This document shows, piece by piece, positions 9,582 to 9,725 of a stretch of DNA of 13,254 nucleotides. The notes beneath the pieces were generated by a model, which was not told the origin of the DNA, searched no databases, and worked only from the letters and a program-made list of their open reading frames with translations. This DNA comes from a virus, in UHGV virus genome UHGV-0215671. The stretch is one strand, 5' to 3'. Within the stretch, counting starts at the first letter, position 1, and each line of letters begins with the position of its first letter. Both the position numbers and the translations under genes were made by a program.

Positions 9582-9725
9582 GTAGATAAGCTACCCAGAC
9601 TTGCTTAAGGTCTGTAGCGATGTGCCTTGTTGGGTTTAAATCTAGAATTTACCCTTTCACCCTTTGTGGTCGCATACTCACAGGTAAGCTTAATAACTTA
9701 TCTACAAAGATAATTACCAGACCGT
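9582..9725. repeat. Element bounded by a perfect 19-bp inverted repeat around a 106-nt core
   Basis: 9582-9600 AATTATCTTTGTAGATAAG is the exact reverse complement of 9707-9725; the core holds an internal hairpin CAGAC-TTGCTTAAG-GTCTG. Confidence 0.6.

What the first reader, a model, noticed from the sequence alone, without database searches (positions are those of the whole stretch)
9582..9725. 19-bp perfect inverted repeat closing a 106-nt core between tRNA-Lys and the tRNA-like element
On a transcript this forms a long perfect duplex, a classic RNase III substrate, so it may separate tRNA sub-clusters in a polycistronic precursor or be the terminal stem of a small RNA. A miniature transposable element is the alternative, but I see no target-site duplication.
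Basis: seen in the sequence. Interest (0 to 1): 0.55.

Follow-up and report, generated by a model that had tools for sequence, protein, structure and literature searches.

The report
Closing stem of a conserved phage RNA
The inverted repeat is the closing stem of a conserved, roughly 145-base folded RNA in the tRNA array of FelixO1-like phages; it is not a jumping gene, and it sits among tRNA-mimicking RNAs downstream of a Ro60-like RNA-binding protein that is reported to block a bacterial defence.

Summary
The repeat is real, but it lies at 9572-9590 / 9697-9715, ten bases left of the stated span. The arms are 19 bp perfect with 106 nt between them. On the tRNA-sense (minus-strand) RNA the helix reaches 24 bp when G-U pairs are counted.

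The window is a Felixounavirus tRNA array. The helix (P1) is kept in every relative examined, as two alleles in about 250 GenBank phages and as at least six further sequence versions in distant relatives. It is always 22-27 bp and always ends 0-10 nt before tRNA-Lys(UUU). Pairing is kept through many double changes and through G-U pairs that work only on the tRNA strand.

P1 encloses a hairpin (P2) whose stem covaries and whose 9-nt loop, CYUWWGCAA, is conserved. The element is therefore the terminal stem of a structured non-coding RNA module. It is not a transposable element: there is one copy per phage, none in 5,426 E. coli genomes, and no presence/absence polymorphism.

The neighbouring "tRNA-like element" is a circularly permuted tRNA mimic of the YrlA (Y-RNA) type. 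The 471-aa gene at the head of the array is predicted to fold like Ro60.

RNase III cleavage of P1 and binding of this RNA by the Ro60-like protein are both plausible but untested.

The parts
9692..9715 (-). P1 5' strand (AAUUAUCUUUGUAGAUAAGUUAUU). The perfect 19-nt arm is 9697-9715.
   Evidence: covariation.
9572..9595 (-). P1 3' strand (GGUAGCUUAUCUACAAAGAUAAUU). The perfect 19-nt arm is 9572-9590. It ends 4 nt (UAAU, 9568-9571) before the 5' end of tRNA-Lys.
9596..9614 (-). P2 hairpin CAGAC-CUUAAGCAA-GUCUG, directly abutting the P1 3' strand. The 9-nt loop is conserved (CYUWWGCAA) and the stem covaries.
9615..9691 (-). Variable core of the module, in two alleles A and B. It holds short covarying hairpins and the conserved motifs GAGUAUGCG (9671-9679) and AUUCUAGAUU (9639-9648).
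9492..9567 (-). tRNA-Lys(UUU). RNase P cleavage at its 5' end would create the 3' end of the module (inferred).
   Evidence: The module is always directly upstream of tRNA-Lys(UUU).
9717..9849 (-). Neighbouring YrlA-like unit. ACAGAAGACCG-UUUACAGCAA (9829-9849) and CGGUCUGG (9717-9724) close around a V hairpin (9797-9813), T arm (9776-9792), closed acceptor-like hairpin AS (9758-9775) and D arm (9741-9755).
   Evidence: partial Rfam tRNA hit.
9862..9939 (-). Y-like unit 3 (GCAGAAGACC-AAAUU-CAGCAA ... UUGGUCUGG), with no tRNA-like insert.
10295..10355 (-). Y-like unit 2, between tRNA-Met and tRNA-Asn.
10447..10522 (-). Y-like unit 1, between tRNA-Glu and tRNA-Met.
10856..12271 (-). 471-aa Ro60-like protein (Pfam DUF2828 + DUF7788 + vWA). 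It is the positional counterpart of Bas63 gp130 and heads the tRNA/ncRNA array.
8335..8418 (-). Paralogous long-stem hairpin ending 4 nt before tRNA-Leu(UAG).

Best explanation
The inverted repeat is helix P1, the 22-27-bp terminal stem of an independently folding, roughly 145-nt non-coding RNA module. The module is transcribed on the minus strand as part of the polycistronic tRNA/ncRNA precursor of Ounavirinae phages.

Shown here:
- P1 is under selection as an RNA helix on the tRNA-sense strand.
- It always sits immediately 5' of tRNA-Lys(UUU).
- It encloses a conserved hairpin P2 (covarying stem, conserved 9-nt loop CYUWWGCAA) and other conserved motifs.
- It exists as two exchangeable alleles.

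Inferred:
- RNase P cleavage at tRNA-Lys makes the module's 3' end.
- P1 clamps the two ends together, and because it is about two helical turns of duplex it is the likely entry point for host RNase III. Cleavage there would release a stable stem-closed RNA and separate the upstream Y-like RNAs from the Lys-Met-Ile tRNA sub-cluster.
- The module belongs functionally with the neighbouring Y-RNA-like units. It shares their 'short helix + ...GCAA' signature and lies 1.1 kb downstream, on the same strand, of a Ro60-like protein. It probably acts as a protein-bound small RNA rather than as a mere spacer.
For: Helix conservation and covariation:
- In 11 distinct sequences from Felixounavirus, Suspvirus, Mooglevirus and a 63%-identity outgroup, 97.7% of pair cells are paired. 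Sliding the partners by 1-3 columns drops this to 30-44%.
- Ten pairs change on both sides, and 0 of 500 shuffles reach the observed covariation score.
- RNAalifold independently predicts the same P1 and P2.

Distant relatives:
- Phages whose Ro60-like protein is 53-63% identical (L213-L220) carry a different-sequence 22-27-bp stem at the same place, 0-10 nt before tRNA-Lys(UUU). In seven of the eight loci (all but L220) the regex or the fold shows a P2 hairpin with loop CYUWWGCAA or CUUUAGUAA.

Strand:
- There are about 31 G-U cells against 2 A-C cells.
- The covariance model scores the sense strand at 131-170 bits and the antisense strand at 23-38 bits.
- For allele B (tootiki), folding energy is -48.4 kcal/mol sense versus -35.4 antisense.

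Function beyond a spacer:
- The P2 stem covaries (CAGAC/GUCUG, CAGUC/GACUG, GUUC/GAAC, GAGAC/GUCUC, AAGUC/GACUU) while its loop stays fixed.
- An internal helix UUUCCU/AGGAAA switches to UCUCUU/AAGAGA.

Context:
- There is no Rfam family match.
- Promoters lie upstream and no terminator lies in between.
- The Ro60-like fold is supported by a model with pLDDT 88.5 whose top 12 PDB hits are all Ro60.
- Bas63 gp130 has been described independently as Ro60-like.
- A YrlA-like T-AS-D module lies next door, with at least 11 different acceptor-like stems that all pair.
- The same module type occurs in 11 of 75 distant DUF2828 loci on the protein's strand and in none on the opposite strand.
- A paralogous long stem sits before tRNA-Leu(UAG).
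Against: - There are no RNA-end, abundance or cleavage data. The module's 5' end, its stability and RNase III cleavage are all inferred.
- The canonical Ro60-binding motif is absent: there is no CGAA in 9568-9716, and the P1 sequence varies freely.
- gp130 alone, expressed from a plasmid or from T7, counters the Ppl defence (PMC11482910). At least that activity therefore does not need the phage RNAs.
- The module is separated from the YrlA-like unit by a tRNA in distant relatives, and L213/L217 have the module without the adjacent T-AS-D unit. The link between the two is by neighbourhood and a shared short motif only.
- Perfect duplex character is not conserved.
Confidence: 0.6

Rival explanations
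1. P1 is only a processing signal. It is an RNase III site (or exonuclease barrier) that separates tRNA sub-clusters in the precursor, and the enclosed core has no function of its own.
For: Helix length is constant at about two helical turns, which suits RNase III, while its sequence varies freely. The position directly 5' of the first tRNA of a tight sub-cluster is conserved. A paralogous long stem lies before the Leu-Lys-Ala-Gly-Thr sub-cluster. The core sequence differs by about half between alleles A and B.
Against: The core keeps a hairpin with an invariant 9-nt loop and a covarying stem across all lineages. It also keeps further covarying helices and motifs. A bare cleavage site would not need these.
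Confidence: 0.22
2. The module is itself a Y RNA, that is, a direct ligand of the Ro60-like protein, with P1 playing the role of the Y-RNA 5'/3' stem.
For: It is on the same strand and 1.1 kb from a Ro60-fold gene. It has a long terminal stem enclosing loops, as in Y RNAs. P2 repeats the 'helix + GCAA' signature of the four Y-like units. In L221 the element before tRNA-Lys is a Y-like unit with a 20-bp closing stem.
Against: There is no conserved bulged helix or CGAA motif. The P1 sequence is not conserved. gp130 works against Ppl without phage RNAs. Binding is untested.
Confidence: 0.3
3. It is a miniature inverted-repeat transposable element or other mobile DNA.
For: It has terminal inverted repeats around a non-coding core, and two 'alleles' share the same ends.
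Against: There is one copy per genome in all records. There is no match in 5,426 complete E. coli genomes. There is no empty site: 190 allele-A plus 60 allele-B records roughly equal the 249 records that share the flank. There is no target-site duplication (flanks ...CUGGU| and |UAAUGG). G-U-mediated covariation marks RNA-level selection.
Confidence: 0.02
4. It is a DNA-level palindrome (cruciform, protein-binding site or origin), or part of the + strand ORF 9620-9877 that some GenBank records annotate as a hypothetical protein.
For: An 85-aa ORF exists on the + strand and is annotated in AYO145A, FelixO1 and Bas63.
Against: The asymmetry between G-U and A-C pairs points to an RNA of the minus strand. 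Relatives differ by 1-nt indels inside the ORF. The ORF runs antisense through the T arm and D arm of the tRNA mimic.
Confidence: 0.03

Closest known systems
Y RNAs / bacterial YrlA-type Y RNAs with Ro60 (Rsr) (Chen et al. 2014, PMC4201824; Thermus phage phiLo Yrl1/Yrl2, PMC12135203)
   Same: It is encoded close to, and on the same strand as, a Ro60-fold protein. It is a small RNA closed by a long stem formed from its two ends, with internal loops. The neighbouring unit has the YrlA order V-T-AS-D, with tRNA-like T and D loops.
   Different: The protein is a DUF2828-type Ro60 homologue recognisable only by structure. There is no GNCGAAN0-1G or CGAA motif. The conserved signature is instead AGAAG-helix-(U)UWCMGCAA, or a hairpin loop CYUWWGCAA. 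The RNAs are embedded in a tRNA array. The IR module itself has no tRNA-like domain.
RNase III processing stems (rRNA operon stems; phage T7 R sites; phage T4 species I RNA, a stable RNA in the T4 tRNA cluster that RNase III cleaves in vitro). This comparison is from my own knowledge and was not checked here.
   Same: It is a helix of at least 20 bp formed by sequences flanking a structured RNA inside a polycistronic stable-RNA precursor. Helix length is conserved while sequence is free to vary.
   Different: Cleavage has not been shown. T7 sites carry internal loops that direct single cuts, whereas this helix is uninterrupted in this phage.
Miniature inverted-repeat transposable elements
   Same: It has terminal inverted repeats around a short non-coding core.
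   Different: It is single-copy, at a fixed location, and never absent. It has no target duplication, and its arms covary through G-U intermediates.

Membership tests
RNase III processing stem | About 20 bp or more of nearly uninterrupted double-stranded RNA on the transcript | tested here: met
   24 bp (21 Watson-Crick, 3 G-U) with no interruption in the window. Relatives have 22-27 bp with 0-2 interruptions.
RNase III processing stem | Lies between mature RNAs in one precursor transcript | tested here: met
   Sigma-70-like promoters lie at 10837-10809 and 10746-10717. No terminator-like site lies on the minus strand down to tRNA-Ile. The element sits between the tRNA mimic and tRNA-Lys. This rests on consensus scans only.
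RNase III processing stem | Cleaved by RNase III in vivo or in vitro | not testable with these tools
   Needs end mapping in wild-type versus rnc hosts, or an in vitro assay.
Y RNA (Ro60 partner) | Encoded near a Ro60 orthologue on the same strand | tested here: met
   The 471-aa ORF at 10856-12271(-) has a predicted fold whose top 12 PDB hits are Ro60 chains (E 9e-9 to 2e-6, TM 0.41-0.65). The module lies 1.1 kb downstream.
Y RNA (Ro60 partner) | Long stem formed by the 5' and 3' ends, enclosing internal loops | tested here: inconclusive
   The stem and loops are supported by covariation, but the RNA ends are unknown.
Y RNA (Ro60 partner) | Conserved Ro60-binding helix or motif (bulged helix; GNCGAAN0-1G or CGAA in bacterial and phage Y RNAs) | tested here: not met
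   There is no CGAA in 9568-9716. The P1 sequence differs in every lineage.
Y RNA (Ro60 partner) | Physically bound by the Ro60 protein | not testable with these tools
   Needs RIP/CLIP or a gel-shift assay.
YrlA-type tRNA mimic (applies to the neighbouring element 9717-9849, not to the IR) | V, T, AS and D stem-loops in that order, with tRNA-like T and D loops | tested here: met
   V 9797-9813, T 9776-9792 (GGUUCGAUUCC), AS 9758-9775, D 9741-9755 (GG in the loop). At least 11 different AS stems all pair.
YrlA-type tRNA mimic (neighbouring element) | GNCGAAN0-1G motif on the 5' strand of the closing stem | tested here: not met
   The closing stem carries ACAGAAGACCG-UUUACAGCAA instead. A GGCGAAG string at the V/T junction is not conserved; FelixO1 has GGAGAGG.
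MITE / mobile element | Multiple copies, presence/absence polymorphism and target-site duplication | tested here: not met
   One place per record. No match in E. coli genomes. 190 + 60 carriers roughly equal the 249 records with the flank. No duplication at the ends.
Intrinsic terminator | G+C-rich hairpin followed by a U run | tested here: not met
   The scan called no terminator-like site on the minus strand here. The stem is A+U-rich and is followed by UAAUGG.

The most novel reading that the evidence does not exclude
Ounavirinae and other phages with DUF2828-type Ro60 homologues encode, inside their tRNA arrays, a previously undescribed family of Ro60-partner RNAs. The family comprises permuted tRNA mimics, short 'AGAAG-helix-GCAA' units and the long-stem module studied here. 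The long-stem module would be a new, tRNA-less Y-RNA class whose two-turn stem is both the RNase III maturation site and the handle by which the Ro60-like ring (Bas63 gp130, an anti-Ppl factor) holds it. That would link a phage RNP to counter-defence or RNA quality control during infection.
Probability: 0.3. Interest if true: 0.75.

Novelty: new variant of a known kind. Interest (0 to 1): 0.6.

Why it matters
FelixO1-like phages are widely used typing and therapy phages, and their tRNA regions are annotated only as tRNAs plus dubious small ORFs.

This work shows that the 'spacers' hold conserved structured RNAs. These are a long-stem module with clear covariation, four Y-like units, and a circularly permuted tRNA mimic. 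All lie behind a Ro60-fold gene whose Bas63 counterpart was recently reported to defeat the Ppl defence.

That gives concrete RNA candidates and coordinates for the so far only speculated 'phage Y RNAs' of this group. It extends the pairing of YrlA-like tRNA mimics with Ro60-fold proteins from Pfam-TROVE proteins to the large DUF2828 family. It also flags several annotated ORFs as probably spurious.

Tried and rejected
- Rfam scans of the array and of the spacer at relaxed E-values found no family for the module. The only hit was a sub-threshold partial tRNA match on the neighbouring mimic.
- The alternative hairpin 9707-9719 / 9726-9738 (I5), which would compete with the P1 5' strand, is not conserved in Moogleviruses. 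It also clashes with the closing stem of the YrlA-like unit, so I dropped it.
- Reading the tRNA-like element as a tRNA-Thr(GGU) with an intron, as annotated in phage REP6, fails. No complementary 5' acceptor strand lies upstream, and the 'anticodon' loop is 6 or 7 nt in different phages.
- Reading it as a relic of two tandem tRNAs also fails, because the acceptor-like hairpin covaries across at least 11 versions.
- A tmRNA or permuted-tmRNA reading rested on weak Rfam hits that lie elsewhere (8915-9392), not in this spacer.
- A retron-like msr/msd reading (flanking inverted repeats) has no support: Pfam found no reverse transcriptase among the 10 largest ORFs.
- The pattern scan of viral contigs with CAGAAGACCN5CAGCAA was too loose, giving mostly single chance hits.
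- The literature search with 'TROVE' was swamped by the ordinary English word, and the search for Felixounavirus transcriptomics found nothing relevant.
- A sequence search of the protein against PDB chains found nothing. Only the structure comparison revealed Ro60.

Full report
**Observation.** The window carries 25 tRNA genes, all on the minus strand, so the minus strand is the RNA-sense strand. The inverted repeat is real. Its perfect 19-nt arms lie at 9572-9590 and 9697-9715 with 106 nt between them. The coordinates in the finding (9582-9725) are shifted by +10. The 19-mer occurs nowhere else in the window, against a chance expectation of 0.01. As minus-strand RNA the helix extends to 24 bp, with 21 Watson-Crick and 3 G-U pairs, at 9715-9692 with 9595-9572. 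It ends 4 nt before tRNA-Lys(UUU) at 9567.

**Origin and distribution.** The window is from a Felixounavirus; its best matches are 99.6% identical.
- The 155-nt element is present once per genome in 196 phage records, 190 of them full-length.
- A second form, allele B, keeps the same ends but differs in about half of the core. It is present once per genome in 62 records, 60 of them full-length.
- Together these equal the 249 records that carry the adjacent 310 nt, so no genome with the flank lacks the element.
- Allele B occurs in Suspvirus, Mooglevirus and some Felixounaviruses whose flanks are 97% identical to the window, such as pSJ21 and tootiki. The two forms therefore behave as exchangeable alleles.
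- There is no match in 5,426 complete E. coli genomes.
- With no target duplication either, the transposable-element reading is rejected.

**The repeat is an RNA helix under selection.** I aligned 11 distinct sequences from alleles A and B and from the outgroup L213/L217, whose neighbouring protein is 63% identical.
- P1 and an inner hairpin P2 are paired in 97.7% of cells. Sliding the 3' partners by 1-3 columns drops this to 30-44%.
- Ten pairs change on both sides, and no shuffle out of 500 reaches the observed covariation score.
- RNAalifold independently predicts the same P1 and P2.
- One pair runs U-A, then U-G, then C-G across lineages.
- About 31 cells are G-U and only 2 are A-C, which marks the tRNA-sense transcript as the selected molecule.
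- A covariance model scores the sense strand at 131-170 bits and the antisense strand at 23-38 bits.

**More distant relatives.** In contigs of 24-92 kb whose protein is 53-63% identical (L213-L220), the spacer directly 5' of tRNA-Lys(UUU) again folds into a 22-27-bp terminal stem. The stem sequence is unrelated, with 0-2 interruptions.
- The model finds four of these at the expected coordinates: L219 (E = 5e-4), L215, L218 and L214.
- In seven of the eight loci (all but L220), searches show P2 with a covarying stem (CAGAC/GUCUG, CAGUC/GACUG, GUUC/GAAC, GAGAC/GUCUC, AAGUC/GACUU) and a conserved 9-nt loop (CUUAAGCAA, CUUUAGCAA, CCUAUGCAA, CCUUAGCAA, CUUUAGUAA). In the MFE folds it lies 0-1 nt from the P1 3' strand.
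- L220 instead has a 7-nt loop (CUUGCAC).
- Only the window-type allele has an uninterrupted duplex, so length is conserved but perfection is not.

**Context.** The 471-aa ORF at 10856-12271(-), at the head of the array, matches Pfam DUF2828, DUF7788 and weakly vWA.
- It has no sequence hit in the PDB.
- An AlphaFold model (pLDDT 88.5) matches Ro60 over its full length. The top 12 Foldseek hits are all Ro60/TROVE chains, including the Ro60 of Thermus phage phiLo.
- Independently, a 2024 preprint reports that gp130 of the Felixounavirus Bas63 is structurally Ro60-like, lies directly upstream of the tRNAs, and counters the Ppl defence. Its authors speculate that some 'tRNA genes' may be Y RNAs, but they identify none (PMC11482910). 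In the Bas63 record the tRNA-Asn gene carries locus tag bas63_0134, which is consistent with gene 130 lying at the head of the array.
- gp130 alone, moved into T7, still counters Ppl.

**The "tRNA-like element".** It reads, 5' to 3' on the RNA: a hairpin (V), a perfect tRNA T arm, a closed 7-bp acceptor-like hairpin (AS) and a tRNA D arm. Together these span 9813-9741.
- They are enclosed by AGACCG (within the conserved motif ACAGAAGACCG-UUUACAGCAA at 9829-9849) pairing with CGGUCU (within CGGUCUGG at 9717-9724).
- This is the V-T-AS-D order that defines YrlA-type bacterial Y RNAs (PMC4201824).
- The AS stem has at least 11 different sequences that all pair.
- In Maleficent and L215 the 3' strand is followed by GCCA or ACCA. 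This recalls M. smegmatis YrlA, which RNase P cleaves and which receives CCA.
- The V loop is 6 or 7 nt in different phages, so it is not a decoding anticodon loop.
- Under strict criteria such modules occur in 11 of 75 more distant DUF2828 loci on the protein's strand, and in none on the other strand.

**Other Y-like units.** Three further units in the window share the motif AGAAGACC-N5-CAGCAA ... GGUCUGG without a tRNA-like insert. The same 'AGAAG-helix-UWCMGCAA ... helix-UGA' signature frames the tRNA mimics in phages whose protein is only 51-52% identical.

**How the IR module relates to these.** P2 is a miniature of the same signature: the helix AGAC/GUCU followed by ...GCAA. In L221 the element before tRNA-Lys is a Y-like unit with a 20-bp closing stem. 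But the module is autonomous. L213/L217 have it without the adjacent tRNA mimic, and in L215-L220 a tRNA-Ala separates the two. It lacks the CGAA-type Ro60 motif.

A paralogous long stem lies at 8335-8418(-) and ends 4 nt before tRNA-Leu(UAG). It is conserved with covariation, and in L213 its arms resemble those of the IR (CUUUGUAGAU.../...AUCUACAAAG). So long two-turn stems precede the first tRNA of two tight sub-clusters.

**Mechanism.**
- *Shown:* there is a conserved RNA helix on the tRNA-sense transcript that closes a structured module with conserved internal features. It lies inside a transcription unit with promoters at 10837-10809 and 10746-10717 and no terminator-like site before it.
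- *Inferred:* RNase P at tRNA-Lys makes the 3' end. P1 holds the ends together and, being a duplex of at least 22 bp, is a likely RNase III substrate whose cleavage would free the module and separate the upstream RNAs from the Lys-Met-Ile tRNAs. The conserved P2 loop and other motifs argue that the excised RNA has a function of its own, most plausibly as a protein-bound RNA in the same system as the Y-like units.
- *Alternatives:* the module may be a pure processing signal (about 0.2), or a direct Ro60-type ligand (about 0.3, which overlaps the best explanation). Mobile-DNA, DNA-palindrome and coding readings are each below 0.05.

**Novelty.** No Rfam family matches. The Ro60-likeness of the protein is already in a preprint, and YrlA RNAs are known next to Pfam-TROVE proteins, including 22 phages. 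Three things appear to be undescribed in the literature I could search:
- the long-stem module;
- the identification of the actual Y-like and YrlA-like RNAs in Ounavirinae;
- their association with DUF2828-type Ro60 homologues.

I rate it a new variant of a known kind, of moderate to good interest.

Noticed in passing
window 10856-12271 (-): A 471-aa DUF2828/DUF7788/vWA protein is predicted to fold like Ro60 (the top 12 PDB hits are all Ro60). It is the positional counterpart of Bas63 gp130, a reported anti-Ppl factor.
   Followed up: yes
window 9717-9849 (-): This is a circularly permuted tRNA mimic (V, T arm, closed acceptor-like hairpin, D arm) of the YrlA type. The acceptor-like stem covaries in at least 11 versions. 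[quoted passage not shown]
   Followed up: yes
window 10447-10522, 10295-10355, 9862-9939 (-): Three further short units carry the same frame, (A/G)CAGAAGACC-N5-CAGCAA ... GGUCUGG, and lie between tRNAs. The same signature occurs in distant DUF2828 phages (L221, L222).
   Followed up: partly
window 8335-8418 (-): A second long-stem hairpin (about 26-29 bp) ends 4 nt before tRNA-Leu(UAG). It is conserved with covariation in L213/L217, where its arms resemble those of the IR, so it is probably a paralogue.
   Followed up: partly
window 8915-8996 (-): ARAGORN missed a tRNA-like gene here. It has a 7-bp acceptor stem, no D arm, anticodon loop CUUCUAA (UCU), a long variable region, a T arm and an encoded ACCA. 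It sits where Bas63 has a normal tRNA-Arg(UCU), gives a weak Rfam tmRNA hit, and is identical in L213/L217.
   Followed up: partly
window 9620-9877 (+); also Bas63 0137/0138, AYO145A orf047, FelixO1 ORF94: Small ORFs annotated on the + strand run antisense through the structured RNAs and are broken by 1-nt indels among relatives. They are probably not genes.
   Followed up: partly
window 9939-9994 (-): Two nearly invariant hairpins (GAGAGGGCUAUUUAGCCCCUC and CCCUUAAAGAGUUCUUACGAGUAUUCUUUAAAGGAG) lie at the start of the Asp-Lys spacer. Their function is unknown.
   Followed up: no
GEP101 (PQ036202.1), S19cd (MZ150758.1) and others, relative to window 9716-10025: Some relatives carry insertions of about 330-400 bp within the Asp-Lys spacer. 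In GEP101 a tRNA-His is annotated under the match. The exact insertion point was not examined.
   Followed up: no
window 7829-7924 (-): The 96-nt spacer before tRNA-Val folds into a long-range stem (CAGAGGUCAAGU.../...ACUUCAGACCUCU) and contains GAAGACCG. It may be another structured unit.
   Followed up: no
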